From: a virus
Taxonomy: Duplodnaviria > Heunggongvirae > Uroviricota > Caudoviricetes
Reading direction: 5' to 3' (one strand)
DNA: 38,474 nucleotides
IMG/VR virus record: IMGVR_UViG_2778261226_000006
Part shown: one piece after another, positions 3,947 through 38,187 of the stretch
Position numbering within the stretch: position 1 is the first letter of the stretch
Layout of the letters: every line of letters starts with the position of its first letter
The notes under the pieces: generated by a model
What the model was told of the DNA's origin: nothing
The model's database searches: none
Seen by the model: the letters and a program-made list of their open reading frames with translations, nothing else
Translations under genes and position numbers: made by a program

Positions 3947-4797
3947 GCACCATCCTGAAATGGGCAGGAAATAAAACCGCCATAATGTCCGAACTGAAAA
4001 AGCATCTTCCTGCTGGCCCGCGACTGGTTGAACCTTTCGCGGGTTCCTGTGCAGTGATGATGGAGACGGATTATCCCAGCTATCTTGTTGCGGATATTAA
4101 TCCTGATTTAATCAACCTCTATAAAAAGGTTGCTGCTGATTGTGAGGCGTTTATATCTCGTGCCAGAGCTTTATTTGAGGAAGCAAACAGGGAGGTGGCT
4201 TATTACAACATAAGGCAGGAGTTTAATTACTCCACTGAAATTACTGATTTCATGAAAGCGGTATATTTCCTGTATCTCAATCGTCACGGTTACCGTGGTT
4301 TATGTCGCTATAACAAGAGCAGGCATTTCAACATTCCCTACGGTAATTATAAAAATCCGTATTTCCCTGAAAAAGAAATTCGCGCATTTGCAGAGAAAGC
4401 CCAGCGGGCAACGTTTATCTGCGCCAGCTTTGATGAAACGCTGGCGATGTTGAAGGTGGGGGATGTGGTGTATTGCGATCCGCCTTATGACGGTACGTTT
4501 TCCGGCTATCACACTGATGGTTTCACTGAAGATGATCAGTATCACCTGGCATCCATTCTTGAACATCGGTCATCAGAAGGACATCCGGTCATTGTTTCTA
4601 ACAGTAACACGTCTTTGACCCGGTCCCTTTATCGTAATTTCACTCACCACTACATCAGGGCGAAACGCAGCATCGGCGTTGCAGCGGGGGAGGGAAAATT
4701 TGCAACAGAGATGATTGCCACTAAATCTGCTAATTGGTTTAGTGCCGATTTTAGTAGGGGACGTGACTCTACTGTTATTTTCGGGGTGCAAGTGTGA
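3943..4797 (+). CDS. dam: DNA adenine methyltransferase (Dam, GATC-type, alpha class)
   Basis: N-terminus [15 protein letters not shown]...[11 protein letters not shown] (AdoMet motif) and catalytic YCDPPY. I start at ATG 3943, not at the longer track ORF. Confidence 0.9.
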
Positions 4798-5624
4798 AAG
4801 AAATGCACCACGGAATTCATCATTTCCATGGGACGCCTGTCTGGGGAAGTGCTGGCGACGTTCATCGTATTGCGGTGAGCGGAGCTGGCGCTTTCGTCTC
4901 CTATGTACGACCAGATCAGATTGCGGCGTCCATTCAGCACGCTCAGGTCGTCGGCATTGATAACGGCGCATTTTCTGCATGGGTGCGTGGGCTAAAAATT
5001 AACTGGAGTGATTTTTATAAATGGCTCCTGAACTATTACCACCATCCTAAGGTCGCTTTTTTTGTCATTCCTGATGTTGTGGACGGAGGTGAACGTGACA
5101 ATGATGCCCTGATAAACGAAGTTCCGAAAATGTTCTACGGGAAGGCAACTCCCGTCTGGCATCTGCACGAGTCAATCGATCGGCTTATCGAGCTATGTCG
5201 TGAATGGCCTCGTGTCTGCTTTGGATCGTCTGGTGAATATGCGGCTATCAGAACTGCGCACTGGCATCGTCGTATGCAGGACGCTTTTGAAGCAATTTAT
5301 TGCCGACACAATTTCAAAACAGCTGTTCATGGTTTGCGCATGCTTGACGGTCGTGTGTTGGGAAATTACCCACTGGCGACTGCCGACAGTACAAATCTTG
5401 CCTGCAATGTCCCCAAATTTAATAGCAAATATCCTGAGCTGACGCGGGCTATTCAGGAGGCTGAGTATTCGCGCAATCTGACGGAAAAGGAGCTGAAAGC
5501 TGTCATTCTGAAAAACCGTTGCGCAATTTTAAAAGGTGCAATTGAAGCTGTTCGCCCACCTTCAGTTTCTGATTGGCTGTCGAATGGTTTGCAGCCTTCA
5601 CAGCTCGAACTGGAGATTGCGTAA
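4794..5624 (+). CDS. Unknown early protein, possibly a TGT/DpdA-like TIM-barrel (DNA 7-deazaguanine transglycosylase-like); function unproven
   Basis: Start overlaps the dam stop (GTGA) and stop overlaps the A start (TAATG). The motif series [39 protein letters not shown] resembles the strand-end motif order of tRNA-guanine transglycosylase-fold DpdA proteins as I recall them. Confidence 0.7.
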
Positions 5625-7996
5625 TGAACTACAGCTATTCCTGGAATGCTGAGAAAAAAGCAATCAATCCTTACGTAGAGACAGAAGAGCAATCTTCAGT
5701 TTCTGCGCTTTCAAACCTGATCGCTCTGTACGCTGCCGATAACGAGCAGGAACAGCTGCGCCGCGAGGCACTGAGTGATCAGGTCTGGGAGCGTTATTTC
5801 TTTAATGAATCCCGTGATCCTGTCCAGCGCGAAATGGAGCAGGATAAGCTCATTAGTCGGGCAAAGCTGGCGCATGAGCAGCAGCGTTTTAATCCAGATA
5901 TGGTCATTCTGGCGGACGTCAATGCCCAGCCTTCCCATATCAGCAAGCCGCTGATGCAACGTATTGAATACTTCAGCAGCCTGGGCAGGCCAAAGGCTTA
6001 TTCCCGCTATTTGCGTGAGACGATTAAGCCATGTCTGGAACGGCTGGAGCATGTACGCGACTGTCAGCTATCCACTTCTTTTCGCTTTATGGCAAGCCAT
6101 GAAGGGCTGGACGGCCTGCTGATCCTGCCTGAAATGAGTCAGGATCAGGTGAAACGCCTGTCCACCCTGGTAGCTGCGCATATGAGCATGTGCCTTGATG
6201 CAGCTTGTGGCGATTTGTATGTCACCGATGACGTTAAGCCAGAAGAAATCCGCAAGACATGGGAAAAGGTGGCAGCGGAAACCCTGCGTCTGGATGTCAT
6301 CCCGCCTGCGTTTGAGCAACTCCGCCGGAAAAGAAACCGCCGTAAACCCGTGCCCTATGAACTCATTCCGGGTTCGCTGGCGCGTATGTTGTGCGCTGAC
6401 TGGTGGTACCGGAAATTATGGAAGATGCGTTGCGAATGGCGGGAAGAGCAGTTGCGTGCTGTCTGCCTGGTCAGCAAAAAAGCATCTCCCTATGTCAGCT
6501 ATGAAGCCGTGATGCATAAACGTGAGCAGCGCCGTAAGTCGCTGGAGTTTTTTCGTTCTCATGAACTGGTGAACGAAGACGGCGACACGCTGGACATGGA
6601 GGATGTGGTAAACGCCAGCAGCAGCAACCCTGCGCATCGCCGCAATGAGATGATGGCCTGTGTTAAAGGCCTGGAGCTTATCGCGGAAATGCGCGGTGAC
6701 TGCGCCGTTTTCTACACCATCACCTGTCCGTCACGTTTCCATTCCACGCTAAATAATGGCAGGCCCAACCCAACTTGGACAAATGCGACGGTAAGACAAA
6801 GCAGTGATTATCTGGTCGGCATATTTGCTGCATTTCGTAAGGCGATGCACAAAGCCGGATTGCGGTGGTATGGCGTGCGGGTGGCTGAGCCGCATCATGA
6901 CGGTACAGTTCACTGGCACCTGTTGTGTTTTATGCGCAAAAAAGACCGCCGCGCCATCACTGCATTACTGCGTAAGTTTGCCATCCGTGAAGACCGCGAG
7001 GAACTGGGCAATAACACTGGGCCGCGCTTTAAGTCTGAGTTGATTAACCCGCGCAAAGGTACGCCAACAAGCTACATCGCGAAATACATCAGTAAGAACA
7101 TTGACGGGCGTGGTCTGGCTGGCGAGATCAGCAAGGAAACGGGTAAATCTCTGCGTGATAACGCTGAATACGTTAATGCCTGGGCGTCTCTGCATCGTGT
7201 TCAGCAATTCCGCTTCTTTGGCATTCCGGGGCGTCAGGCTTACCGTGAACTGCGATTGCTGGCTGGTCAGGCGGCAAGGCAACAGGGTGACAAAAAAGCA
7301 GGTGCGCCGGTACTGGATAACCCGCGCCTTGATGCCATTCTGGCTGCAGCTGATGCTGGTTGCTTTGCCACCTACATCATGAAGCAGGGCGGCGTACTGG
7401 TTCCCCGTAAATATCACCTCATCAGAACCGCTTATGAAATCAACGAAGAGCCGACCGCCTATGGCGATCACGGTATTCGTATTTATGGCATCTGGTCACC
7501 CATTGCAGAGGGCAAGATCTGCACTCATGCAGTGAAGTGGAAAATGGTTCGTAAAGCCGTTGACGTTCAGGAGGCGGCAGCCGACCAGGGCGCTTGCGCC
7601 CCTTGGACTCGTGGCAATAACTGTCCCCTTGCTGAAAATTTGAACCAACAAGGGAAAGACAAATCAGCTGATGGGGATACCAGAACGGACATTACCCACA
7701 TGGATGACAAGGAGTTGCACGATTACCTGCACAGTATGAACAAAAAAGAGCGCCGGGAACTGGCTGCAAGGTTACGCCTGGTGAAACCGAAACGGCGTAG
7801 AGACTACAAACAGCGAATTACAGACCATCAACGACAGCAGCTCGTCTATGAACTGAAGTCCAGAGGATTTGATGGCAGCGAGAAAGAGGTCGATTTACTC
7901 CTTCGCGGCGGCAGTATTCCGTCAGGAGCAGGCCTGCGTGTCTTCTATCGGAACCAGCGTTTGCAGGAAGATGATAAGTGGCGGAACCTGTATTAA
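5624..7996 (+). CDS. A: Replication initiation endonuclease (P2 gpA / 186 A, HUH rolling-circle nickase)
   Basis: HUH-type motif [13 protein letters not shown] and the tyrosine pair in [14 protein letters not shown]. Size and position match P2 A. The ATG 5624 start overlaps the upstream stop. Confidence 0.9.
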
Positions 7997-8044
7997 TTAC
8001 GCGGGTTAACAATTCGTGCTCTTAATAATACCAGGCATATCAGG

Positions 8045-8075
8045 CTGATGAACGTAAAAAAACGTTTTACATCAG
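8045..8075 (+). terminator. Hairpin downstream of gene A (possible early-operon terminator)
   Basis: CTGATG-AACGT-loop-ACGTT-(TTA bulge)-CATCAG. The T-tract is weak, so this call is tentative. Confidence 0.3.
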
Positions 8076-8090
8076 TAAGATTATTATATA

Positions 8091-8106
8091 CTGTAAATAT
8101 AAACAG
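8091..8106. promoter_or_regulatory. LexA (SOS) box
   Basis: taCTGTaaatataaACAGtg is a perfect CTGT-N8-ACAG with an AT-rich core. It lies 44 nt upstream of the 8150 start in an AT-rich promoter-like stretch. Confidence 0.8.
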
Positions 8107-8149
8107 TGGTTATCTATACAGTATTGTTTGCGGTGTCATAGGAGGAAAG

Positions 8150-8338
8150 ATGCAGGACTATTTTTTGGAGTCTTTGAAGCTCCAGCGCATTGATTTTTTT
8201 CTTAAGCTTGTAGCGGCTAGTGAGTGTAGTGATGAAGAGAAGGGGCTGGCCCTGCAGTGGGTTTCTGAATTGACTGATGAACTCATGGCAAAAATCAGAA
8301 GCCACGAATACAACCGCTCAATGGATGTCATCAGCTGA
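8150..8338 (+). CDS. Small SOS-controlled protein; candidate Tum-like antirepressor (62 aa)
   Basis: GGAGGA RBS (8141-8146) before ATG 8150, directly downstream of the LexA box. The position equals 186 tum. No sequence motif recognised. Confidence 0.55.
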   Translation: MQDYFLESLKLQRIDFFLKLVAASECSDEEKGLALQWVSELTDELMAKIRSHEYNRSMDVIS

Positions 8339-8348
8339 GGTGACTTTT

Positions 8349-8582
8349 ATGCGCATTGAAATAATGATCGATAAAGAGCAGAAGATTAGCCAGTCTACCC
8401 TGGACGCTCTGGAGTCCGAGCTTTACCGCAACCTGCAACCCATCTATCCCAAGACCGCTATCCGCATCCGTAAAGGGTCGGCAAACGGCGTTGAGCTGAG
8501 TGGCTTAAAGCTTGATGAAGACAAAAAGCGGGTGATGGAAATTATGCAACAGGTTTGGGAAGACGACAGCTGGCTGCACTAA
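8349..8582 (+). CDS. DinI-family protein
   Basis: MRIEIMIDKEQKISQSTLDALESELYRNL...KKRVMEIMQQVWEDDSWL parallels E. coli DinI (MRIEVTIAK...ISEILQETWES..DWF). Confidence 0.85.
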   Translation: MRIEIMIDKEQKISQSTLDALESELYRNLQPIYPKTAIRIRKGSANGVELSGLKLDEDKKRVMEIMQQVWEDDSWLH

Positions 8583-8700
8583 GGAACGTTCCTGATGTAA
8601 GAACTTGAATCTGACGTCAGCAAGGTTGAACAACGAGAGTAGCGAGGCGTTAGCCATGGGTAAAAAAGACAGTAATCACCAGATTATTTATCGGGGCTAG

Positions 8701-8916
8701 GTGCTGGAACGTTTAACCCTTGGCGACTGGGTCTTCTTTCAACGCCCAAAGGAGTGTGGCGGAGGTTTTTGGTTGGGCCGCATCTATGAAGACTGCTTCT
8801 GGCTTGAGCTGGAATTCCCCGTTTCGCTATATGACGGCCTGGGGTTTTTGATGGAAGTCACTAGGGTAGAGCAGAGAAGTGATGAGGTTGACGCGAATTA
8901 TCCCCTGTTTGATTAA
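8701..8916 (+). CDS. Hypothetical 71-aa ORF (GTG start)
   Basis: Open frame only. The RBS is weak and no motif is recognised. Confidence 0.3.
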   Translation: MLERLTLGDWVFFQRPKECGGGFWLGRIYEDCFWLELEFPVSLYDGLGFLMEVTRVEQRSDEVDANYPLFD

Positions 8917-8964
8917 AAATGTATTAGCTTATAATGGAATACTATTTTTGCAGGTGGGGGCGCA

Positions 8965-9576
8965 ATGGATTTAGTCTTTAAAGTTCTGGCTTCGTTGGGT
9001 GGGGTGTCTTTTGTTGCATCTGGCATATTTGTTTGGATCGGGAAAGTTTATTTAGAAAGATATAAGTCGCGGCTAAACAAAGATATTGCTGAATTTCAAT
9101 CACAACTGAGTGCAACTAATGAAAGAATAAAGGCTAAGTTAGACAATTCTGTTTATGTAACGAAAGCGTATTTTGATAAGGAGTTATCAGCATATAGTCT
9201 CATTTGGAATTCGATGTTTGAAACCAGAGAAAGCGTGCTTAAGCTGAGGCCTGCGCTGGATCATGTTGACCCCAACGAACCATTTGAAGAGAGAAAATTT
9301 AGAAGGTTGAAAGTTTTTTTTGATGCATTTAACACTTTTGTTACAAGTGTTGAATCTAACAAACCGTTCATCTCACCAGAGGTTTATATAATCTTGGACC
9401 GTTTCCGGAAGGAATGCCTTTCAGAGTCAATATCGTTTAAGCATAGCGATCCAGAATTTGACGGGCAAAATTATTGGAAAGAGGCGGAGTTGAACCATAC
9501 AACCATCACCAAGCTTTTTGATGAGACGTGTGATGCAATTCGAAACAGGATGCACACATTAACTGTGGTTACGTAG
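8965..9576 (+). CDS. Single-pass membrane protein with helical cytoplasmic domain (203 aa); cargo at the tin/old position next to cos
   Basis: N-terminal TM helix VLASLGGVSFVASGIFVWIG followed by a long predicted helical region. It starts a visibly AT-rich block. The position corresponds to the P2 tin/old variable locus. Confidence 0.75.
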   Translation: MDLVFKVLASLGGVSFVASGIFVWIGKVYLERYKSRLNKDIAEFQSQLSATNERIKAKLDNSVYVTKAYFDKELSAYSLIWNSMFETRESVLKLRPALDHVDPNEPFEERKFRRLKVFFDAFNTFVTSVESNKPFISPEVYIILDRFRKECLSESISFKHSDPEFDGQNYWKEAELNHTTITKLFDETCDAIRNRMHTLTVVT

Positions 9577-9668
9577 GTTTCCAAAAAGTCTCGATGCCCG
9601 CTTTGGAGATTGTGCATGTCTATGCCGCATGAATCCGCATGATCGTTTGAGGATCGTTTTAGCTGAGG

Positions 9669-9695
9669 CCCGCCAGGAGTGGCGGGATTTTGCTT
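9669..9695 (+). terminator. Rho-independent terminator-like hairpin
   Basis: CCCGCCA-ggag-TGGCGGG followed by ATTTTGCTT, downstream of the 203-aa ORF. Confidence 0.45.
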
Positions 9696-9736
9696 ATGTC
9701 ATGCAGGCGCATGAAAACCGCTACATAAAGCGGGCA

Positions 9737-9755
9737 GGCGTGGCGGGGATACGAG
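9737..9755. other. Candidate cos cohesive-end site (186-like)
   Basis: GGCGTGGCGGGGATACGAG shares its first 13 nt with the 186 cohesive end as I recall it (GGCGTGGCGGGGAAAGCAT; P2 is GGCGAGGCGGGGAAAGCAC). It lies in a GC-rich non-coding island between two AT-rich cargo blocks. Its orientation relative to Q matches P2. Confidence 0.55.
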
Positions 9756-9825
9756 CGCGCGCAAATATGGAAATTAGCTGCGTTTTGTTATATATAGGAG
9801 AGATATTAAAAGGGTAGGCACCACT

Positions 9826-10350
9826 ATGACTGTTTTACACCTTGTAGCAGACCACCTTGTTAAGCAGGCTAATACAACCCATAGAAAGGGGGAGGTGCAC
9901 GCAATATTAGCAGATGCATATGGTCGTTCTGCTTTTAATCGGTATTATTATGCTTGTTTTCTTAACGTCCGTGAGTTTGTTTCAACTATTGATTCCAATT
10001 GGGGCAAGGTCAAGCATGCAGATGTTCCAAAATTATTACGTGATAGTGTAAGTAGAAAGATAGAAGTTGAGCTCCAAAAATCAGAAAAAATTGGCGATAT
10101 AACTTTATGTGAATATAAATCTAAAAAGAGCTTAATACGTACTTCACTGAACAATATGGCTTCAACTATGGCATTGGCATATACAATTAGGGGAGTTGTT
10201 GATTATGAGCCGGAAATTGAGATGATATTCTGTAATGGCAGTTTTTCGATTAATAAAACATCAGTGGCTTCGGCTAAGGGGTGGCTACAAACCATTAATT
10301 CAGAAAGATCGAAGGTTACCAGAATTATGAAGGAGATTGGCTTTGTCTAA
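9826..10350 (+). CDS. HEPN-like all-helical protein (174 aa), first gene of the retron-associated operon
   Basis: AYGRSAFNRYYYACFLNVREFV...KVKHADVPKLL and a distal AYTIRGVVDYEPE resemble the HEPN (PF05168-type) pattern: ...YYA.F.a...l....sH... then R...DY. AT-rich. The stop overlaps the next ORF. Confidence 0.72.
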   Translation: MTVLHLVADHLVKQANTTHRKGEVHAILADAYGRSAFNRYYYACFLNVREFVSTIDSNWGKVKHADVPKLLRDSVSRKIEVELQKSEKIGDITLCEYKSKKSLIRTSLNNMASTMALAYTIRGVVDYEPEIEMIFCNGSFSINKTSVASAKGWLQTINSERSKVTRIMKEIGFV

Positions 10351-11080
10351 CCAGAAAATATTATCAGAATTGTTGGTAAAATTCCCGTTTATAAAAGTTA
10401 AAGATGTAACAGATTTTATGGATACAATTCTGTTGATCATCCCAATTAACAAAATAGTACCATTGTCTGCTTCGAATAGTATAACAAAACGCCAGATATC
10501 TTTATTGGTGAAACGAATAACAGAAAAGCTAAATGTAAGAGTGTTGATTAGTTACTCACCATTTTCAGATAAAGACAATATTGAAGCGGCTTTAGTGGCG
10601 TTAGCGAGAAGTAATTTTAAAAAAGGGAAGATATCTGATTTGAATTTATCTTTCTTTGATTCGCAAAACGCAGTGCTTTATGTCTTTTGTAAAAACCTTA
10701 CATTATCAGAACGCGAGAAGTGGGAGTCGTTAGTTGTAGGGATATTAAACGGTTTTAATATAAAAGTGACTTCATTTGTATATGAGGCTAAAAATAATCC
10801 TGAACCTACAATGATGGTTATTTTAAGAGCGGCAAAAAAATGTCAGCCCTTTGATCTTCCAAGATTGTTCAGTCAACTTGATAATGGCGATTATCATATT
10901 GAATCACTTGATTGGCTGAATGGGAAGCTAGACAACTTACGTAAGAAAGGATTTTTATTAAGAAGCCATGACGGAACTTATAGAATGACATTGTCAGGGT
11001 TAGAAATAGTTCCAGTGACTAAATCTAGGCAAAGTTCTGATATAGAGAGGGTCCTTTATCTTGCACGCAAACATCTATAG
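10337..11080 (+). CDS. Unknown protein with C-terminal winged-helix-like domain (about 245 aa), second gene of the retron-associated operon
   Basis: Overlaps the upstream stop (TTG 10337 or TTG 10343, 7 nt after GGAG). The C-terminal segment MMVILRAAKKCQPFDLPRLFSQLD...LDNLRKKGFLLRSHDGTYRMTLSGLEIV looks like a wHTH with a beta-wing. The N-terminal alpha/beta region was not recognised. Confidence 0.72.
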   Translation: MALSNQKILSELLVKFPFIKVKDVTDFMDTILLIIPINKIVPLSASNSITKRQISLLVKRITEKLNVRVLISYSPFSDKDNIEAALVALARSNFKKGKISDLNLSFFDSQNAVLYVFCKNLTLSEREKWESLVVGILNGFNIKVTSFVYEAKNNPEPTMMVILRAAKKCQPFDLPRLFSQLDNGDYHIESLDWLNGKLDNLRKKGFLLRSHDGTYRMTLSGLEIVPVTKSRQSSDIERVLYLARKHL

Positions 11081-11089
11081 TGGTATATT
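11061..11089 (+). promoter_or_regulatory. Sigma70 extended -10 promoter for the retron ncRNA
   Basis: TTGCAC (11061-11066), a 17-nt spacer containing TG, then TATATT (11084-11089): TGgTATATT. The predicted start, about 7 nt downstream, coincides with the first base of the a2 repeat (11096). Confidence 0.5.
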
Positions 11090-11095
11090 CGCGTT

Positions 11096-11268
11096 GGTAG
11101 TGGCGTTCACGAGAGTATGCATCATGCTCATTTGTGAAGGTCGCGGACAGAATGTGCGCCTGCGAATCAGCAGTCGTTCCTTCGAAACGTCTGCTGATTC
11201 GCAGGCGTCATCAACGAAAGTTTTCATCAGCTTTGCTTAAGGATTGACCTTATGAAAACGCCACTACC
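11096..11268 (+). ncRNA. Retron msr-msd non-coding RNA (template and primer for msDNA)
   Basis: 12-nt perfect inverted repeats GGTAGTGGCGTT (11096-11107, a2) and AACGCCACTACC (11257-11268, a1). Short msr-like hairpins lie at 11108-11136. The long msd hairpin has arm GCCTGCGAATCAGCAG (11158-11173) and arm CTGCTGATTCGCAGGC (11191-11206), 16 bp perfect, plus a 4-bp inner stem. It lies immediately upstream of, and overlaps the start of, a retron-type RT. Confidence 0.7.
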
Positions 11269-12229
11269 CTTATTTTTCACATTCACTGATGCCGAACAGT
11301 TTCTTAAGGCGTTGAGCACACCGCTGAGAGATAGATATTCTGCGGAACTTATTCGACTACAAGGCCTCAGGCTTCCCCCATTAGTTTCTTGGAGTATCTT
11401 GTCTGTTGCCATTGGCGTAAGCCCACAATTTATTACTTCGTTAATTAAGAATAAGTCAAAATACTATCGTGTTTTTTCTATTTCCAAAGGAAGAGGAAAG
11501 AAAAAAAGAATTATTGAAGCACCCAAGGTTAGTATAAAAATCATTCAGTCTTGGGTCGCTCATCATTTAAGCATTAATCATAGTCTTGGCATAAGTGAAA
11601 ATGCATATGCTTTTATCCCAGGTAAGAATGGGATATATGAAGCTGCAAGTAAACATTGTGGTGCAAAATGGATCCTGTCTATTGATTTAAGAGATTTTTT
11701 CCATACGATCACTTCAGATATAGTGATTTCAACATTAGTTGAAATCGGATATAGAGCCGATCAGGCTGCTAAATTGAGTGAATTACTTACCTTGAATCAG
11801 AGACTTCCGCAAGGTGCGCCAAGTAGCCCTGTTATCTCAAATTTAGTATTTAGGTCAACTGACTTAAAGATTAATGAGTTGATTTCTAATACGGGTATTA
11901 AATATACTAGATATGCTGATGATTTGACCTTCTCCGGTGATGATGAAACATTTGATATCGAGGAACTTAAAGATAATGTTGTAGAGTTGTTACTATCTGA
12001 TAATTGGGTTGTGGCTGAGGAAAAACTCAGAATAGCTAGGATTCCTAATAGATTAAAAGTACATGGTTTTCTAGTTCATGAAAATAAACCTAGATTGACT
12101 AAAGGCTATCGAAATAAAATTAGAGCATATAAACATTTATTGAGGACTGGGAAAATAGTTGAGAAGGATTTTGATAAAATTAAAGGGCATGTTAACTATA
12201 GTGAATATATTGATAGATTGAATGAGTAA
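11252..12229 (+). CDS. ret: Retron-type reverse transcriptase (325 aa)
   Basis: RT motifs KKKRIIEAP, SIDLRDFFHTI, LPQGAPSSPVISN and the YTRYADDLTFSG (YADD) active site. Retron-style NAYAF is present, and LKVHGFLV sits at the position of the retron VTG motif. Size is typical of stand-alone retron RTs. Confidence 0.92.
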   Translation: MKTPLPLFFTFTDAEQFLKALSTPLRDRYSAELIRLQGLRLPPLVSWSILSVAIGVSPQFITSLIKNKSKYYRVFSISKGRGKKKRIIEAPKVSIKIIQSWVAHHLSINHSLGISENAYAFIPGKNGIYEAASKHCGAKWILSIDLRDFFHTITSDIVISTLVEIGYRADQAAKLSELLTLNQRLPQGAPSSPVISNLVFRSTDLKINELISNTGIKYTRYADDLTFSGDDETFDIEELKDNVVELLLSDNWVVAEEKLRIARIPNRLKVHGFLVHENKPRLTKGYRNKIRAYKHLLRTGKIVEKDFDKIKGHVNYSEYIDRLNE

Positions 12230-12249
12230 GGGCCTAGCCCTTACTCATT
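12221..12249. terminator. Bidirectional hairpin between convergent ret and Q
   Basis: AATGAGTAAGGGC-cta-GCCCTTACTCATT is a 13-bp perfect stem that spans both stop codons. Confidence 0.6.
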
Positions 12250-13280
12250 TAATTTAATGTGTATATTCCAAAGGATATGATTTTATCTCCTATCCAGTTA
12301 TTTAACTCTTCTAGTCTTCTCTGTAATGGTATTAACTCATTCCTCACAAAAACAAGGCTTGCCTTCTCCACATCCCCAAAACCCCCAACATTATTAGGCA
12401 TTATCCCCATCATTTGTGGGGGTACACGATGCGCCGCCATCATGTCGTCCCGGCTTACGTTCTTGATGTTCAGAAACTCATCCTTCGCCGCGACTTCTGA
12501 TAACGGGATAATCTGAAGTCCGTCCTTTTTGCCGTTAGGAGAGTACATAAACAGATTGCGGAAGTTACCTGGTCCTTTGGCGCTTTTCATTGCATTGCGG
12601 AGGTTGTTCACATCCTCCTGGTTTTGTGCGGCGTCGGTCATGTACATGATGAAGCCTGCATGACTGCCGTTGATGTAATACTTCCGGCGGAACAGCGTGG
12701 CGGACTCGTTGAGCAGGGCTGACGGAATGGCAGAAAGATAACCGGGCAGGCCGTAGATCTCCTGGTTGATGTCCGGTTCCATCAGATGAAAAATGCTGCC
12801 TTTCGTGAACTGATACGGCTGGGTTGTCATACCGTATTGCACAAACCAGTAGGTATCCAGGTCTAACCCGCGTCGGGTGTATTTTGCCAGAGCAGGCTCA
12901 AGGGCGATAACTTCACCAAACCGGTTCGTGCGTTTCTCCAGGTAGGCGTTACCAAATACCAGATAGTCCTGCACAAAACGTGAAAAAGCCTGTTGGCTGA
13001 GCAGCGGGTGAGGGATGTAGGTGCTGGTCAGAATGTTGCATTTCACCGCAATCGGTGAGCTGTGATGCACGGCGGCGCGGAAGGTTCGCGCCAGTCCGTC
13101 AAAGCTGACGGGAGGCTCATACCAGCGATCTGTCTGTACGCATTCCACATAGTCCAGCAGTTCGCGGCGGTCAAGTACTGGAATGGGATCACCGAAGCTG
13201 AAAGCCTCAGCCGTTGGAGCGTTGCCTGGTTTTGTGTTGTGATCAACCTTTACCAGTTTGATGTTTTTATGTTTGCTCAT
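12249..13280 (-). CDS. Q: Portal protein (P2 gpQ)
   Basis: 343 aa at the P2 Q position and orientation. Sequence is of the P2 portal family (…YGLPGYLSAIPSALLNESATLFRRKYY…). Confidence 0.92.
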   Translation of the reverse strand: MSKHKNIKLVKVDHNTKPGNAPTAEAFSFGDPIPVLDRRELLDYVECVQTDRWYEPPVSFDGLARTFRAAVHHSSPIAVKCNILTSTYIPHPLLSQQAFSRFVQDYLVFGNAYLEKRTNRFGEVIALEPALAKYTRRGLDLDTYWFVQYGMTTQPYQFTKGSIFHLMEPDINQEIYGLPGYLSAIPSALLNESATLFRRKYYINGSHAGFIMYMTDAAQNQEDVNNLRNAMKSAKGPGNFRNLFMYSPNGKKDGLQIIPLSEVAAKDEFLNIKNVSRDDMMAAHRVPPQMMGIMPNNVGGFGDVEKASLVFVRNELIPLQRRLEELNNWIGDKIISFGIYTLN

Positions 13281-25713: not shown

Positions 25714-26315
25714 TAAGTAAAGCTGTATTAAATAATGAACTCATCGCCACAAAGGCCGGAGACATTACCGTTTATAATTATGATGGTGAAACACGGGAAT
25801 ATATTTCCACATCAACTGAATATCTTGCTGTGGGTGTCGGTATCCCGGCATGTTCCTGTTTAGATGCTCCTGGCTCATATAAAGCTGGTTATGCAATTTG
25901 CCGTTCTGCAGATTTTAACTCATGGGAATATGTGCCAGACCATCGCGGTGAAATCGTCTATAGCACCGAAACAGGAGAATCAAAAGAAATCACAGTTCCG
26001 GGTGATTACCCTGAAAATACAACCACTATCGCCCCGTTAACGTCATACGATAAATGGGATGGTGAGAAATGGGTGACCGACACTGAGGCACAGCATAACG
26101 CCGCAGTAGACGCGGCAGAAGTACGGCGCCAGTCACTGATTGATGCGGCTATGGCTTCCATTAGTCTGATTCAGCTGAAATTGCAGGCCGGGCGGAAGCT
26201 GACGCAGGCAGAAACAACCCGGCTTAACGCTGTGCTGGATTACATTGACGCGGTGACTGCAACAGATATCAGCACCGCGCCGGATGTCATCTGGCCTGAA
26301 CTACCGGAGGCGTAG
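25710..26315 (+). CDS. G: Tail fibre assembly chaperone (gpG/U-like), expressed orientation
   Basis: The C-terminal half (...EAQHNAAVDAAEVRRQSLIDAAMASISLIQLKLQAGRKLTQAE...LDYIDAV) is of the tail-fibre-assembly family. The start overlaps the H stop. Confidence 0.85.
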   Translation: MISKAVLNNELIATKAGDITVYNYDGETREYISTSTEYLAVGVGIPACSCLDAPGSYKAGYAICRSADFNSWEYVPDHRGEIVYSTETGESKEITVPGDYPENTTTIAPLTSYDKWDGEKWVTDTEAQHNAAVDAAEVRRQSLIDAAMASISLIQLKLQAGRKLTQAETTRLNAVLDYIDAVTATDISTAPDVIWPELPEA

Positions 26316-26730
26316 GCCATTCAATATCTGGAGCACTGGAGGTATCAACCAGTTCCAGTGCGTCCAGATAATCCAGCCATAAATTATATTGTTCCAGCTC
26401 GTCACCTTTCAGACGACCAATAGCAGCTTTGCCAGGCCACTGATGGGTATTGATGTAGGTATTGACTTCTGAAACCAAAGATATTTTTTTCATTTCAGCC
26501 GCCAGCACCTCATCCTCTTTTGAAGGCGGCGGGGAATTAATCCATATTGGCCGTCCTGAACTGTCAGCGCCAATTTCTTTCCCTTCTGGATGCAGCCCAA
26601 GAAATTGCTCATATGTTTCTCTGGTAATTTCAATAACATCATCAGGAAGCGTTCCCGCATCCTCATATTCTGGAAACAATTCTTGCAGATAAAAACTTTT
26701 ACTTCCGGGTGAAAAGAATACTGAGTTCAT
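26287..26730 (-). CDS. Alternative tail fibre assembly chaperone (silent orientation)
   Basis: Same family (...HQWPGKAAIGRLKGDELEQYNLWLDYLDALELVD...). It is convergent with G and overlaps it at the 3' ends, as Mu U/U' do. Confidence 0.85.
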   Translation of the reverse strand: MNSVFFSPGSKSFYLQELFPEYEDAGTLPDDVIEITRETYEQFLGLHPEGKEIGADSSGRPIWINSPPPSKEDEVLAAEMKKISLVSEVNTYINTHQWPGKAAIGRLKGDELEQYNLWLDYLDALELVDTSSAPDIEWPTPPVVQAR

Positions 26731-26732
26731 TC

Positions 26733-27186
26733 TTACCGTCCAATGATTAACGCTGAGACGCTGGTATCTGAAGGAAAGGCTGCATTCAGTGGTTTGTCGA
26801 CTTTGAACACAATCGTATTATTCCCCCTGACAGCGGCAAAAGAACAAACCGCCGTCGCGTATGAACCTGTAATATTACTGGATACACCACCATAGGCTGT
26901 TGTTGATACCAGAGGGATAACGCCCAGCACCTTATTAGGAAATACAAAGGGCAATGTGGCTGTGGCAATATAAGACTTATTAGAACCTGTGATGGCATAA
27001 GCATTATCAGTCATTCCATTCATCGCCACTGGGCCGCTTATACTTACAGTAACCATCTGAATGATTAGCCCGTCAGGTTGACGAATCACAAAATTTCCAT
27101 TGCCACCAGTAGCCGTCCAGAAAGACATATCAGGGATTTGGTTTTCCCCGTTGCCCACATTCCGTTTTGCCGCTTCTCCCAAACCA
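26733..27186 (-). CDS. Alternative tail-fibre C-terminal cassette (promoterless; would fuse to H after inversion)
   Basis: The reading frame through the crossover gives ...GLGE|AAKRNVGNGENQ..., which matches the LGLGE junction in H. The rest is an unrelated beta-rich receptor-binding domain. The track ORF's first codons (27187-27227) lie outside the segment. Confidence 0.8.
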
Positions 27187-27199
27187 ACGTTTAAGAAAA
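27174..27199. repeat. Invertase crossover site, right
   Basis: TTCTCCCAAACC-AA-CGTTTAAGAAAA, in inverted orientation relative to 25229-25254 (central AA versus TT). Confidence 0.7.
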
Positions 27200-27254
27200 T
27201 GCAGAGGTAACAGCTAACTGGCATCATCTCCGGTTTTTATTCAGGGGGATGATC

Positions 27255-27821
27255 ATGCTTATTGGCTATGTACGCGTGTCAACAAATGACCAGAACACCG
27301 ATTTGCAACGTAATGCACTGAACTGCGCGGGATGTGAGCGGATTTTTGAGGACAAAATCAGTGGCACTAAGTCCGACAGACCGGGGCTGAAAAAACTACT
27401 CAGGACACTATCGGTAGGAGACACGCTGGTTGTCTGGAAGCTGGACAGGTTGGGGCGCAGTATGCGGCATCTTGTTACGCTGATAGAAGAGTTGCGCCAG
27501 CGTGGTGTGAATTTCAGAAGCCTGACTGACAGTATTGATACCAGTACCCCAATGGGCCGTTTCTTTTTTCATGTCATGGGTGCCCTGGCTGAAATGGAAC
27601 GCGAACTGATAGTTGAACGCACCAGGGCAGGGCTGGCTGCAGCTCGTGCCAAAGGCAGAGTAGGTGGACGCCGTCCTAAGTTGACCACCGAACAGTGGGC
27701 ACAGATTGGGCGTTTACTCGAGGCCGGAGAATCAAGACAGCGTATTGCACTGATTTTTGATGTAGGCGTTTCTACCATTTATAGAAAATTTCCGGCAAAT
27801 AAGATCAATGAATCCCCCTGA
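27255..27821 (+). CDS. Serine DNA invertase (Gin/Cin/Pin/Hin family)
   Basis: MLIGYVRVSTNDQNTDLQRNAL (catalytic Ser), ...LVVWKLDRLGRS..., and the C-terminal HTH GGRRPKLT...IALIFDVGVSTIYRKF. Confidence 0.93.
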   Translation: MLIGYVRVSTNDQNTDLQRNALNCAGCERIFEDKISGTKSDRPGLKKLLRTLSVGDTLVVWKLDRLGRSMRHLVTLIEELRQRGVNFRSLTDSIDTSTPMGRFFFHVMGALAEMERELIVERTRAGLAAARAKGRVGGRRPKLTTEQWAQIGRLLEAGESRQRIALIFDVGVSTIYRKFPANKINESP

Positions 27822-35112: not shown

Positions 35113-35604
35113 CTAGCATCCGATAAGGTCGTTTGCTTCAAACTTTGGCAAATGATACTCATTTGCCAAATGTTCGTTATCTTTGTTATTTTTTAAATAT
35201 TTGTATTTTAATGTATTTTTATCTTCATTGTATGATAATAAAGCTTCCCCGATAGGAACATCACGCCACCCTATTTGAATGCAAAGAAGGATAGTGACCT
35301 GCCCTTTATGGTTTAGCTTACCCGAGAATGTAAAGGTGCATTTCTCTTCATCAAGGCTTGTTGATGAACAGTTAGTGATAGTCCCTGCCAAATTGCCGAC
35401 GACATCTGATGACTCAATTTTTATGCTTATTATATTCTCATTATGGTTGCGAATATCACCAACATTGTTCCAGTTTTTTGAGACTAGAAGCTCAATAATT
35501 CTTTTTTTCTTAAGGCGTTTTACTTCCTTTGCCTGTGGTGAGTATAAGAGGTATGCGGGTATGCCTGCTACAATTGCCAGCACAGCTAATATAATGGTAA
35601 CCAT
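35113..35604 (-). CDS. AT-rich single-pass membrane protein (163 aa), unknown function
   Basis: AAGGA lies 6 nt before ATG 35604. The N-terminal TM is VTIILAVLAIVAGIPAYLLY and the C-terminal part is beta-rich. It is bracketed by 14-bp direct repeats. Confidence 0.65.
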   Translation of the reverse strand: MVTIILAVLAIVAGIPAYLLYSPQAKEVKRLKKKRIIELLVSKNWNNVGDIRNHNENIISIKIESSDVVGNLAGTITNCSSTSLDEEKCTFTFSGKLNHKGQVTILLCIQIGWRDVPIGEALLSYNEDKNTLKYKYLKNNKDNEHLANEYHLPKFEANDLIGC

Positions 35605-35620
35605 CTGAAGTCCTTGTTCT

Positions 35621-35634
35621 TCTGCCGCCATTTT
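35621..35634 (+). repeat. 14-bp direct repeat copy 2 (TCTGCCGCCATTTT)
   Basis: Exact repeat of 35046-35059. Confidence 0.7.
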
Positions 35635-35699
35635 GCCGCCAAAGATAAGTAAAGTAGTTTCTAACTTATTGATTATGGAATGGAAGAATAGCAGGCAAC

Positions 35700-35742
35700 A
35701 AAAAACCCATCAACCTTGAACCGAAATGGCGGGGTTGATGGG
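35700..35742 (-). terminator. Rho-independent terminator of ybjL
   Basis: On the minus strand: CCCATCAAC-loop-GTTGATGGG followed by TTTTTT. Confidence 0.7.
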
Positions 35743-35854
35743 CTCCACAAAATGGGGACATCAAAGAAAAGCAGTGGCACTAATTAAGACTGATGCCCTG
35801 CGGAAAAGTTCTGCGGTTGTGCAAAAAAATTTCATTTTCAGGGCAACTTCAGTT

Positions 35855-37540: not shown

Positions 37541-37809
37541 GGAGGCTAACTTCTTGTTTACTAGTAAGCTGTTGAAAGAAATGGTAATTTACGATAATGT
37601 TTTTTACCAGAATTCAGGGCGCAGATTCATTCAGCGCACCTAAACGATAGTAAAGTAACAATATATTTTACTAGTGTAATCACATTAGGTATCAACGGCT
37701 ATATGAATTGCGTTGGCCTATATTAGCATGGAATGCGAAGCGGCTTTATCTTACTGAACGCCACACTGGCGAAAAATGTGTTCGATAGACGCAGTGTCAG
37801 GAGGAACGA

Positions 37810-38187
37810 GTGAAACATAAACAACGTTGGGCGGGGGCAATCTGCTGTTTTGTCCTCTTCATTGTGGTGTGCCTTTTTCTGGCGACGCACATGAAAGGCG
37901 CTTTTCGGGCTGCCGGGCATCCTGAAATCGGCTTGCTATTTTTCATTCTTCCTGGAGCAGTTGCCAGTTTCTTTTCACAGCGTAGAGAAGTCCTGAAACC
38001 TCTATTTGGCGCAATGCTGGCGGCACCCTGTTCAATGCTCATTATGCGGCTGTTTTTTTCACCGACGCGCTCATTCTGGCAAGAGCTGGCATGGTTACTA
38101 AGCGCGGTGTTCTGGTGTGCGCTGGGGGCACTGTGTTTCTTATTTATCAGTAGTTTGTTTAAACCACAGCACAGAAAAAATCAGTAA
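37810..38187 (+). CDS. ybjM: Inner membrane protein YbjM
   Basis: 125 aa with about 4 TM helices. GTG start after GGAGGA. Its position between ybjL and grxA matches E. coli K-12. Confidence 0.88.
   Translation: MKHKQRWAGAICCFVLFIVVCLFLATHMKGAFRAAGHPEIGLLFFILPGAVASFFSQRREVLKPLFGAMLAAPCSMLIMRLFFSPTRSFWQELAWLLSAVFWCALGALCFLFISSLFKPQHRKNQ

What the first reader, a model, noticed from the sequence alone, without database searches (positions are those of the whole stretch)
8965..9576. Orphan single-pass membrane protein at the tin/old hot spot
This is a 203-aa ORF with one N-terminal TM helix and a long helical soluble domain. It marks the onset of the AT-rich cargo. It has its own terminator-like hairpin downstream and is separated from the retron operon by cos. 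Single-gene membrane-anchored proteins at this position in P2-like phages are typically superinfection-exclusion or abortive-infection determinants. I recognise no family.
Basis: inference. Interest (0 to 1): 0.6.

Follow-up and report, generated by a model that had tools for sequence, protein, structure and literature searches.

The report
Membrane-anchored prophage cargo protein, function unknown
This is a real, selectively maintained accessory gene of a P2-like prophage that makes a small inner-membrane-anchored helical-bundle protein from a large uncharacterised family; a near-identical copy is switched on in the dormant prophage of E. coli LF82, and it is a plausible but untested candidate for a new single-gene anti-phage protein.

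Summary
The 203-aa ORF at 8965-9576 (+) is real. dN/dS is 0.11-0.12 between the E. coli and Enterobacter copies. It lies in a 957-bp variable cassette (8655-9611) between DinI and cos of a P2/186-like prophage. The flanks occur in about 1,280 of 5,426 complete E. coli genomes; this ORF occurs in 52. Many prophages have the slot empty or filled by other genes.

It is not an orphan. An exhaustive HMMER search finds 1,182 clusters at 50% identity, almost all about 200 aa, across many phyla. The family has no Pfam, NCBIfam or PADLOC model (only phrog_26391, function unknown).

AlphaFold2 (pLDDT 95) gives an N-terminal TM helix continuing into a roughly 40-residue stalk and a four-helix bundle. Flanking charges place the bundle in the cytoplasm.

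No partner gene is conserved. The same protein sits beside at least eight different cargos beyond cos, so it is independent of the retron. Relatives lie in other accessory slots of mobile elements, including inside a type I R-M operon.

Published RNA-seq lists the LF82 orthologue (CARTA_47) as an autonomously expressed moron.

My best reading is a stand-alone, Abi-type phage-exclusion protein acting at the cytoplasmic face of the membrane (confidence about 0.45). This is untested. Its closest architectural analogue is the Csx28 pore protein, to which it shows no sequence relationship.

The parts
8965..9576 (+). Target gene: 203-aa bitopic inner-membrane protein (phrog_26391 family), stop codon included
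   Evidence: ORF listed. Full-length match to phrog_26391, E 8.7e-142. dN/dS 0.11-0.12 against the Enterobacter orthologue. Found in 52 of 5,426 complete E. coli genomes at 90-99.7% nucleotide identity.
8983..9042 (+). Codons 7-26: single N-terminal transmembrane helix. Gly at positions 12 and 26 is kept in 64% and 62% of family members.
   Evidence: Hydrophobicity scan: 112 of 117 members have one such helix and 1 of 117 has a second. K+R count is 0.38 on the N-terminal flank and 3.26 on the C-terminal flank, which gives N-out/C-in. Gly conservation.
9043..9162 (+). Codons 27-66: charged amphipathic stalk helix, continuous with the TM helix and with the first bundle helix
   Evidence: The AlphaFold2 model built on 117 sequences has one helix spanning residues 13-92, with pLDDT 96-98 over this part. 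A hydrophobic seam with 3-4 residue spacing is read directly from the sequence; that it mediates oligomerisation is an inference.
9163..9564 (+). Codons 67-200: cytoplasmic four-helix bundle carrying the family's near-invariant residues E73, W81, L94-R95-P96, P134-F135, E154 and I192-R193-x-R195
8909..8935 (+). Promoter-like element: TTGATT, a 15-nt spacer, then a perfect TATAAT (8930-8935), about 30 nt upstream of the ATG
   Evidence: Read from the sequence. Both hexamers are conserved in the E. coli and Enterobacter copies. The tool's scan does not list it because it requires a 16-18 nt spacer. In LF82 the orthologue is transcribed 4- to 60-fold above the small ORF just upstream and above gpA, so a promoter must lie hereabouts.
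8656..8916 (+). Decaying small ORF (phrog_2100; 86 aa when intact in LF82) that forms the left part of the cassette
   Evidence: An in-frame TAG at 8698-8700 replaces the CAG of LF82. The Enterobacter copies have lost the ATG and carry a frameshift and a stop. phrog_2100 match, E 1.4e-28. It is therefore not a required partner of the target gene.
8655..9611 (+). Variable cassette occupying the slot between DinI and cos
   Evidence: Megablast of 7900-9830 against E. coli genomes: the flanks match at query 1-~755 and ~1713-1865 in about 1,280 genomes. In many of them the two pieces are adjacent within about 913 bp (empty slot). In others they are separated by different genes such as DUF6236, DUF2971, ComF, DUF8087 and DUF4145.
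9669..9696 (+). GC-rich hairpin (7 bp, 6 G-C) plus ATTTTGCTTA: terminator-like, inside the conserved cos-proximal flank
   Evidence: It is also present in Cartapus. It lies in the 9612-9764 segment shared by about 1,265 genomes.
9705..9763 (.). cos region, with the cohesive-end-like sequence GGCGTGGCGGGGATACGAG at 9737-9755. It separates this cassette from the second cargo slot.
   Evidence: Pattern match, expected 0.02 by chance. Position fixed by homology to the annotated 'putative cos site' at 1-59 of phage Cartapus OV696611.
9826..12229 (+). Neighbour, not part of the feature: type IX retron (HEPN_IX 9826-10350, HTH_IX 10337-11080, RT_IX 11252-12229) in the slot between cos and the portal gene
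   Evidence: PADLOC E-values 1.4e-52, 1.5e-61 and 4.2e-129. The retron occurs without the target ORF in CP106924, and the ORF occurs mostly without the retron: only 3 genomes cover at least 80% of 8965-12229.

Best explanation
The ORF is a self-contained accessory ('moron') gene carried in the slot between DinI and cos of a P2/186-like prophage, which is the position of tin and old in P2. It has its own promoter and is expressed from the repressed prophage.

Its product is a bitopic inner-membrane protein. About 6 residues face the periplasm. One TM helix continues without a break into a roughly 40-residue stalk, and the stalk leads into a cytoplasmic four-helix bundle with a near-invariant set of Glu, Arg, Trp and Pro-Phe residues.

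I propose that it is a stand-alone phage-exclusion protein of the abortive-infection type. In this model the cytoplasmic bundle recognises a product or consequence of infection by another phage. Self-association through the stalk and the Gly-containing TM helix then perturbs the inner membrane, in the manner of Csx28, RexB or the membrane effectors of CBASS, and this stops the infection.

Shown here or by others: the gene, purifying selection on it, the architecture, the topology prediction, its modular independence, its preference for accessory slots of mobile elements, and its expression in a lysogen.

Inferred only: the anti-phage role, the trigger, oligomerisation and membrane perturbation.
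For: 1. It is a real, constrained gene. dN/dS is 0.11-0.12 between E. coli and Enterobacter, while the small ORF next to it is decaying.

2. It sits in a variable slot at a validated defence hotspot. It is in 52 genomes against about 1,280 that carry the flanks, with empty or alternative fillings elsewhere. Rousset 2022 describes the gpA-to-gpQ, cos-proximal locus as a defence hotspot in which more than a third of cloned systems were active. In P4, the satellite of P2, 6 of 8 unknown loci tested gave protection, and 15-32% of unknown P2 proteins are predicted to be antiviral (PMC13586616).

3. It is independent of its neighbours. The identical Enterobacter protein sits beside five different cargos beyond cos: AIPR, an STM3845+RT retron, an OLD-like protein, AAA_21+RloB and a hypothetical protein. 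In E. coli the partners include a KAP NTPase, DUF4145 and the type IX retron.

4. Relatives occupy accessory slots of other mobile elements.
- Between hsdS and hsdR of a type I R-M operon (L016).
- Next to the CI repressor of Pseudomonas phage Riah, and between terS and terL of Clostridium phage Maintenon.
- After int-alpA in a satellite-like element that also carries DUF4238.
- After int in a Lactiplantibacillus int/VapE element.
- Beside an Abi_C gene, PemK plus an IS, a SIR2-STAND protein and PDC-S41.
- In an island next to smpB.

5. Among 111 neighbouring ORFs from 36 loci, no Pfam family recurs in more than 2, so the gene is a single-gene module.

6. Its distribution across phyla is sporadic, as expected for a horizontally transferred gene.

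7. Expression is autonomous. The LF82 orthologue CARTA_47/LF82_789 is listed as a moron at 7-fold above the prophage background. Its log2 fpkm is 5.4-10.5 across conditions, while gpA stays at 2.5-2.9 and the structural genes at about 2.3 (PMC9928086).

Against: - No phenotype is reported in the papers I searched. Rousset 2022 lists the protein only as 'hypothetical' in hotspot loci and did not test it. It is absent from the DefensePredictor supplements.
- No PADLOC model matches the window protein, and no PADLOC family recurs in more than 4 of 117 family members.
- The association with defence genes is only partial. Many chromosomal relatives sit as single genes beside housekeeping genes such as aconitase, pheT, acyl-CoA dehydrogenase and gcvP. 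I could not compute a proper enrichment statistic.
- Expression of the LF82 orthologue rises about 30-fold in macrophages. That would equally fit a role in host adaptation or stress tolerance.
- The family is rare in sequenced phages (3 records of 50,697) and plasmids (1 of 72,556).
Confidence: 0.45

Rival explanations
1. It is a lysogenic-conversion gene that benefits the host for reasons unrelated to phages. It could be an envelope or stress-tolerance factor, or an anchor or scaffold at the cytoplasmic face of the membrane, switched on in stationary phase or inside host cells.
For: The LF82 orthologue rises from log2 fpkm 5.4-5.6 in LB to 8.5-8.6 after 6 h in DMEM and 10.5 after 6 h in macrophages. 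Many relatives are lone insertions beside housekeeping genes. The membrane-tethered helical bundle carries no recognisable enzymatic or toxin motif.
Against: The family is spread over marine, soil and sediment bacteria and MAGs from many phyla, so a macrophage-specific role cannot be general. Its recurrence in the exact slots where phages and satellites keep defence genes, and inside a type I R-M operon, is not expected for a stress factor. The DinI and phrog_698 genes next to it also rise in macrophages, so the induction may reflect general SOS or stress derepression of the region.
Confidence: 0.2
2. It serves the phage itself. It could be a counter-defence or a competition factor (for example against P4-like satellites or other P2-like phages), or a modulator of lysis or of injection at the membrane. 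On this reading it is not a host-protecting abortive-infection system.
For: It is cos-proximal in a phage whose satellite P4 shares the cos site. Hotspots hold counter-defence genes as well as defence genes (general knowledge of the field). Its membrane location would suit a holin or injection modulator.
Against: It is expressed in the lysogen while the early and late lytic genes are silent. About 96% of related prophages lack it, and many have the slot empty, so it is not needed for the phage life cycle. Relatives occur in bacterial chromosomes and in an R-M operon with no phage nearby. Only about 6 residues are periplasmic, which leaves little to interact with an incoming tail or ejection apparatus.
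Confidence: 0.2
3. It is the membrane effector of a two-part system, paired with the retron or other cargo beyond cos, or with the small upstream ORF.
For: Retrons and other systems often use TM effectors. The gene is about 250 bp from the retron operon, and a small ORF lies 48 bp upstream.
Against: The same protein is paired with at least eight unrelated cargos. The type IX retron cassette occurs without it (H99), and PADLOC already describes that retron as a complete three-gene set. The upstream ORF carries a stop codon here and is frameshifted in Enterobacter. No neighbour family recurs among 36 loci.
Confidence: 0.05
4. It is a valyl-tRNA synthetase fragment, as NCBI's automatic annotation labels some copies, or a chance ORF in AT-rich DNA.
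For: PGAP names WP_016237789 'valyl-tRNA synthetase'. There is a weak match to PF10458.
Against: The match scores 16.6 bits against a threshold of 25.9, with E 0.0097, and covers 38 residues of coiled coil only. No catalytic domain is present. dN/dS of 0.11, a 1,182-cluster family and a pLDDT-95 model show a genuine, different protein.
Confidence: 0.01

Closest known systems
Csx28, the accessory protein of type VI-B2 CRISPR-Cas (PDB 8gi1)
   Different: No sequence relationship is detectable: the profile search of PDB sequences at E<=1 does not return it. It ranks 58th among generic bundles at 10% identity. There is no Cas13b or CRISPR context. This family has an extra stalk of about 40 residues. 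The HEPN-like Rx4-6H motif is absent: the family has R193-x-R195, and H197 is kept only in close relatives. Csx28 needs a partner sensor, whereas this gene stands alone.
Tin and Old of phage P2, and other cargo of the P2 cos-proximal hotspot (Rousset 2022)
   Same: It has the same genomic position between gpA and cos, it is a variable single-gene cargo, and it is expressed from the prophage.
   Different: No PADLOC defence model matches. I did not compare it directly with the Tin or Old sequences. By general knowledge, Tin and Old are soluble cytoplasmic proteins, and Old is an ATPase-TOPRIM nuclease. This protein is membrane-anchored and has no enzymatic domain. Its function is untested.
Four-helix-bundle sensor domains of chemoreceptors and histidine kinases (Tar/Tsr ligand-binding domain, TorS, Adeh_2942 sensor 4k0d)
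   Different: Those domains are periplasmic and lie between two TM helices of large signalling proteins. This protein has one TM helix, a bundle predicted to be cytoplasmic and no output domain. Sequence identity is 3-11%, and no Pfam sensor-domain family appears among the families matched at E<=0.01 by the 117 members. The resemblance is at the level of a very common fold.
Single-gene membrane-anchored exclusion or abortive-infection proteins, such as lactococcal AbiP and T4 Imm (named from memory and not compared here); RexB and the CBASS membrane effectors are cited
   Same: They are small membrane proteins of prophages or plasmids that act alone or as effectors and stop other phages at the membrane.
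   Different: Proteins that block DNA entry usually expose a domain to the periplasm, whereas this protein exposes about 6 residues.

Membership tests
phrog_26391 (PHROGs, unknown function) | Full-length match to the family HMM | tested here: met
   E 8.7e-142 over residues 1-203 of 203. All 117 distant relatives also match only this PHROG at E<=1e-5.
Valyl-tRNA synthetase (PGAP label on some copies) | Class I synthetase catalytic and anticodon-binding domains, or a Val_tRNA-synt_C match above the gathering score | tested here: not met
   The only match is PF10458 at 16.6 bits (cut-off 25.9), covering residues 31-68. No synthetase domain is present.
Known anti-phage defence families (PADLOC-DB v2.0.0) | Match to any defence-protein HMM | tested here: not met
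   The window protein has 0 matches at E<=1. Among 117 family members no PADLOC family is matched by more than 4, and those matches are weak.
Csx28-like pore proteins | One N-terminal TM helix followed by a cytoplasmic four-helix bundle | tested here: met
   Topology statistics, AlphaFold2 model and the description of Csx28.
Csx28-like pore proteins | Detectable sequence or specific structural homology to Csx28 | tested here: not met
Csx28-like pore proteins | Genomic association with Cas13b or a type VI-B CRISPR locus | tested here: not met
   The neighbours are P2 genes, cos and a retron. No Cas family appears among the most frequent Pfam or PADLOC matches of the 111 neighbour ORFs, of which only the top 25 families are shown.
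Csx28-like pore proteins | Homo-oligomeric pore and membrane depolarisation | not testable with these tools
   This needs multimer modelling or biochemistry. Only monomer prediction was available.
HEPN superfamily | Conserved Rx4-6H motif in a four-helix bundle | tested here: not met
   The family motif is I192-R193-x-R195. H197 is invariant only among close relatives and is replaced in the more distant members aligned (for example Y in P0019 and P0020, L in P0021), and the spacing would be Rx3H.
Four-helix-bundle periplasmic sensor domains (Tar/TorS type) | Periplasmic location between two TM helices, attached to a signalling output domain | tested here: not met
   Only one TM helix is present: 1 of 117 members has a second hydrophobic segment. 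Flanking K+R is 0.38 on the N side and 3.26 on the C side, which places the bundle inside the cell. There is no further domain.
P2 cos-proximal hotspot cargo (tin/old slot) | Variable presence between conserved gpA/DinI and cos/gpQ flanks of P2-like prophages | tested here: met
   52 genomes carry the ORF and about 1,280 carry the flanks. The slot is empty or filled by other genes elsewhere. The locus is defined in PMC9122126.
Prophage moron (autonomously expressed accessory gene) | Transcribed in the lysogen independently of the lytic operons | tested here: met
   This is shown for the 96.6%-identical LF82 orthologue, not for this strain. It is 7-fold above the prophage background in LB, while gpA and the late genes stay at background in all five conditions (PMC9928086).
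Type IX retron (neighbour) | Obligate co-occurrence with the retron genes | tested here: not met
   The retron occurs without the ORF (H99). Only 3 genomes cover at least 80% of the ORF-plus-retron span, against 52 that carry the ORF.

The most novel reading that the evidence does not exclude
The protein founds a new, widespread family of one-gene immune proteins. In this reading a 200-residue polypeptide combines sensor and effector. A cytoplasmic four-helix bundle with an invariant Glu/Arg cluster detects infection. The stalk and the Gly-containing TM helix then assemble into a Csx28-like pore that collapses membrane potential. If true, this would be a minimal membrane-based abortive-infection module shared by phages, satellites and R-M operons across many phyla.
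Probability: 0.25. Interest if true: 0.65.

Novelty: new member of a known kind. Interest (0 to 1): 0.42.

Why it matters
The cos-proximal hotspot of P2-like prophages is one of the richest known sources of anti-phage systems, and about a fifth of these prophages carry only unknown genes there (PMC13586616). This gene is a well-defined example of that unknown fraction:
- it is a single gene;
- it is under strong purifying selection;
- its orthologue in E. coli LF82 is expressed in the lysogen;
- it has a high-confidence structural model;
- it belongs to a family of more than a thousand sequence clusters that no curated library describes.

If it protects against phages, it would add a new minimal membrane effector-sensor to the defence catalogue, and it would explain relatives that sit in R-M operons and satellites. 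If it does not, its strong induction in macrophages in the Crohn's-associated strain LF82 makes it a candidate host-adaptation moron.

The work also corrects a recurring database error, the 'valyl-tRNA synthetase' label.

Tried and rejected
- Curated libraries gave nothing beyond phrog_26391. I scanned the window protein against Pfam, NCBIfam, PADLOC and PHROGs, and the 117 relatives against Pfam, PADLOC and PHROGs. The weak hits (apolipoprotein, Val_tRNA-synt_C, Sec8, FliD) are coiled-coil noise.
- A profile search of PDB sequences found nothing significant; the best E-value was 0.18.
- Foldseek against viral structures (BFVD) found nothing with E<=0.001. One weak hit was orf1 of the P2-like phage HP1, which is 205 aa and lies in the int-cI region. 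I fetched it and compared it with hhalign: probability 0.3%, so I rejected it.
- The afdb50 library was unavailable.
With single distant proteins it found nothing in viral contigs. I replaced it with my own degenerate DNA pattern for F[DE]xE...Y...W(12)LRPxxD. That pattern gave 31 genome hits, of which hmmsearch confirmed 28 as true family members.
- I looked for a conserved partner gene among 111 neighbouring ORFs and found none.
- I tested whether the upstream small ORF is a partner. It is decaying, so I rejected the idea.
- I tested linkage to the retron and rejected it.
- I found no phenotype in the literature. The accession numbers appear in no full text, are absent from the DefensePredictor supplements, and appear only as 'hypothetical' in Rousset's Table S5.
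- I considered an HEPN reading of the IRxR(M)H segment and rejected it, because the His is not conserved and the spacing is wrong.
- Rfam found no credible RNA in 8000-12400.
Full report
**1. What is at the coordinates**

The window is a P2/186-like prophage.
- The integrase (1-1131, -), CI repressor (1447-2022, -) and Dam methylase were identified by Pfam.
- gpA (5573-7996) and the portal gene (12249-13280, -) were assigned by 77-90% protein identity to Enterobacter prophage genes carrying Phage_GPA and Phage_portal domains.
- DinI and the reverse transcriptase were identified by Pfam and PADLOC.

The ORF at 8965-9576 (+) exists as described. It has an ATG start, an AGGTGGGGG run at 8952-8960, and encodes 203 aa. 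Its GC content is 0.384, against 0.526 for gpA and 0.508 for the window.

It is followed by a 7-bp GC-rich hairpin with a T-tract at 9669-9696. The cos region comes next. GGCGTGGCGGGGATAC lies at 9737 (0.02 expected by chance). The linear genome record of the related phage Cartapus ends at the position equivalent to window 9704 and annotates its first 59 bp as cos.

Beyond cos lies a complete type IX retron (PADLOC HEPN_IX, HTH_IX and RT_IX; E 1e-52 to 4e-129), and then the portal gene.

**2. The gene is real and constrained**

The E. coli and Enterobacter copies differ at 18% of nucleotides, yet dN/dS is 0.11-0.12. By contrast, the small ORF immediately upstream (phrog_2100; 86 aa when intact in LF82) is decaying. 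It carries a premature TAG here and in strain 504237. In Enterobacter it has lost its ATG and has a frameshift and a stop. The small ORF is therefore not a required partner.

**3. The slot**

I ran megablast of 7900-9830 against 5,426 complete E. coli genomes. The flanks are present in about 1,280 of them: the end of gpA with phrog_698 and DinI up to about 8654, and the cos-proximal 9612-9764. The ORF is present in only 52.

In many prophages the two flanks are adjacent within about 913 bp, so the slot is empty. In others it holds DUF6236, DUF2971, ComF-family, DUF8087, DUF4145 or unnamed genes. The variable cassette is therefore 8655-9611.

The downstream hairpin belongs to the conserved flank and is not private to the gene. 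This slot lies on the gpA side of cos, where P2 itself carries tin and old. It falls within the gpA-to-gpQ hotspot defined by Rousset et al. 2022 (PMC9122126).

**4. Independence from the retron and other neighbours**

The same or nearly the same protein is followed beyond cos by many different cargos.
- A KAP P-loop NTPase in strain 504237.
- DUF4145 in LF82/Cartapus.
- In Enterobacter: an AIPR protein, an STM3845+RT retron, an OLD-like AAA_15-TOPRIM protein, AAA_21+RloB, or a 223-aa hypothetical protein.

The type IX retron cassette occurs without the ORF (H99). Only 3 genomes cover at least 80% of the span from the ORF through the retron. The locus therefore has two separate cargo slots, one on each side of cos, and they are filled independently.

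**5. It is not an orphan**

The word-indexed protein search found only enterobacterial relatives. An exhaustive HMMER profile search of 1.84 billion cluster representatives went much further. It found 1,182 proteins with E<=1e-3, 525 with E<=1e-10 and 39 with E<=1e-30, nearly all 180-230 aa long.

None of these has a consistent Pfam or PADLOC match. All 117 that I aligned match only phrog_26391, which has no known function.

The label 'valyl-tRNA synthetase' that NCBI's pipeline gives some copies comes from a sub-threshold hit to a coiled-coil arm: PF10458, 16.6 bits against a threshold of 25.9. It is wrong.

**6. Architecture**

With the 117-sequence alignment, AlphaFold2 gives a confident model: pLDDT 95, pTM 0.78, and all five models at 93.8 or above. 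One continuous helix spans residues 13-92. It comprises the TM segment (about 7-26), a charged amphipathic stalk (27-66) and the first helix of the bundle. Three further helices (107-131, 138-160, 168-200) pack on it to form a four-helix bundle.

Across the family, 112 of 117 members have exactly this single N-terminal hydrophobic helix. The flanks carry 0.38 K+R on the N-terminal side and 3.26 on the C-terminal side. By the positive-inside rule the bundle is cytoplasmic, and only about 6 residues face the periplasm.

The near-invariant residues all lie in the bundle:
- E73 and P134: 100%
- F135: 99%
- R95, P96, E154 and R195: 97%
- R193: 96%
- W81 and I192: 95%

The TM helix keeps Gly at positions 12 and 26 in 64% and 62% of members. 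This hints that the helix is more than a passive anchor; that is an inference.

**7. Where relatives live**

No partner is conserved. Among 111 neighbouring ORFs from 36 loci, no Pfam family recurs in more than 2. The contexts fall into two groups.

One group is accessory slots of mobile elements and defence loci.
- Between hsdS and hsdR of a type I R-M operon.
- Beside the CI repressor of Pseudomonas phage Riah.
- Between terS and terL of Clostridium phage Maintenon.
- Directly after int-alpA in a satellite-like element inserted in a lambdoid prophage, which also carries DUF4238.
- After int in a Lactiplantibacillus int/VapE element.
- In an island next to smpB.
- Beside Abi_C, PemK plus an IS, an R-M/Mrr gene, a SIR2-STAND protein and a PDC-S41/Schlafen-type helicase.

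The other group is lone insertions beside housekeeping genes such as aconitase, pheT, acyl-CoA dehydrogenase and gcvP.

The hosts span Bacteroidota, Cyanobacteria, Bacillota, Acidobacteriota, Myxococcota, Bdellovibrionota, Elusimicrobiota and several classes of Pseudomonadota. This sporadic pattern is typical of horizontally moving genes. The association with defence genes is suggestive.

**8. Expression**

This is the strongest external evidence. The LF82 prophage Cartapus carries an orthologue that is 96.6% identical in protein (CARTA_47 = LF82_789, at 2759532-2760143). Misson et al. 2023 (PMC9928086) re-analysed RNA-seq of the lysogen. They list this gene as one of only two Cartapus 'morons', at 7-fold above the prophage background in LB. 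Their S1 Table gives these log2 fpkm values:

| Condition | CARTA_47 |
|---|---|
| LB | 5.4-5.6 |
| DMEM 1 h | 7.1-7.3 |
| DMEM 6 h | 8.5-8.6 |
| Macrophages 1 h | 9.0 |
| Macrophages 6 h | 10.5 |

Over the same conditions gpA stays at 2.5-2.9 and the structural genes at about 2.3. The small ORF just upstream reads 3.1-3.3 in LB and 2.6-2.8 at 6 h in DMEM.

The gene therefore has its own promoter, active in the repressed prophage. This fits the perfect TATAAT at 8930-8935, with TTGATT 15 nt upstream, both conserved between E. coli and Enterobacter. This evidence comes from the orthologue and not from this strain.

**9. Interpretation**

The evidence comes from several independent sources: a variable slot in a validated defence hotspot, autonomous expression in the lysogen, single-gene modularity, recurrence in the cargo positions of other phages, satellites and an R-M operon, and an architecture shared with a proven defence pore. 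Taken together, the best-supported reading is a stand-alone phage-exclusion protein that acts at the cytoplasmic face of the inner membrane. The most likely mode is Abi-type membrane perturbation after self-association. I give this about 0.45.

The priors are favourable but not decisive. More than a third of cloned hotspot systems were active in Rousset 2022. Only 15-32% of unknown P2 proteins are predicted to be antiviral by machine-learning tools.

The main rivals are these.
- A host-adaptation or stress moron (0.2). It is favoured by the roughly 30-fold rise in macrophages and by the housekeeping neighbours of many relatives.
- A function serving the phage itself or its competition (0.2).
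- Coupling to the retron or to the small upstream ORF (0.05). The comparative data contradict it.
- The synthetase label or a chance ORF (0.01). Both are refuted.

A classical block of DNA entry from the periplasmic side fits poorly with a protein that exposes only about 6 residues there.

**10. Novelty and score**

The gene has been seen before, without study. It appears as 'hypothetical' in hotspot tables and as an unnamed moron. I found no function, family description or structure.

I rate it a new member of a known kind, namely hotspot-borne prophage accessory or defence candidates. There is a fair chance (about 0.25) that it founds a new family of minimal one-gene membrane immune proteins.

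Interest is 0.42. It is a clean, testable candidate with unusually good supporting data. However, unknown hotspot genes are numerous and nothing about its mechanism is yet shown.

Noticed in passing
window 9826-12229: A complete type IX retron (PADLOC HEPN_IX 174 aa, HTH_IX 247 aa, RT_IX 325 aa) fills the second cargo slot between cos and the portal gene. Only 19 bp separate the RT stop from the end of the portal gene. The 171-bp gap at 11081-11251 upstream of the RT is the likely msr-msd site, but Rfam found no match there.
   Followed up: partly
window 8656-8916: The small ORF (phrog_2100) next to the target is intact in LF82 (86 aa). It carries a premature TAG here and in strain 504237, and is frameshifted with a lost start codon in Enterobacter. 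It is a gene in the process of decay beside a well-conserved one.
   Followed up: yes
window 9629-9817: A 62-aa ORF spans the cos site and matches phrog_28685 (E 8.8e-25). It lies in the conserved non-coding cos flank that about 1,265 genomes share. It is probably a spurious ORF that prophage annotations have propagated into PHROGs.
   Followed up: partly
E. coli RefSeq records, e.g. NZ_CP025862 3302764-3303375 (WP_016237789): NCBI's pipeline names this protein 'valyl-tRNA synthetase' in many genomes. The label comes from a sub-threshold coiled-coil similarity (PF10458, 16.6 bits against 25.9) and is a propagating misannotation.
   Followed up: yes
window 26287-27821: A Hin/Gin-type DNA invertase (27249-27821; Resolvase plus HTH_7) lies next to an oppositely oriented tail-fibre assembly gene and a tail-fibre C-terminal fragment (26287-27227, - strand). 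This looks like an invertible host-range segment downstream of the tail-fibre genes. Cartapus annotates the same arrangement.
   Followed up: partly
window 35113-38187: The right end of the window is host DNA: an Asp-Al_Ex/TrkA_C permease (35855-37540, -) and YbjM (37810-38187). The prophage therefore ends before about 35.8 kb. A 172-aa AT-rich ORF with no Pfam match (35113-35631, -; local GC 0.37) sits at the junction.
   Followed up: no
window 4794-5624: A 276-aa ORF with no Pfam match lies between the Dam methylase and gpA. A gene of the same length, also without a Pfam match, occupies the same position in one Enterobacter prophage (L010). Other prophages have a PAPS_reduct-domain gene or nothing there, so this looks like another small variable spot in the early operon.
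   Followed up: no
L055 5479-12008 (Logan ERR10548450 contig): A 47%-identical relative lies directly after int-alpA in a satellite-like element. The element also carries an AAA_25 replication protein and a DUF4238 gene, and is inserted between capsid genes of a lambdoid prophage.
   Followed up: partly
L053 (Lactiplantibacillus plantarum NZ_CP032651): This 16.2-kb record, deposited as a plasmid, contains two copies of a roughly 8-kb unit (int, HTH regulators, VapE). It looks like a tandem dimer of an excised satellite-like element. It carries a family member next to int.
   Followed up: no
LF82 orthologous region (PMC9928086, S1 Table): In LF82 the phrog_698 gene, DinI and the DUF4145 gene beyond cos are also strongly induced in macrophages, to log2 fpkm 9-11, while gpA stays silent. 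The whole cos-proximal accessory region is therefore transcribed independently of the lytic programme under stress.
   Followed up: partly
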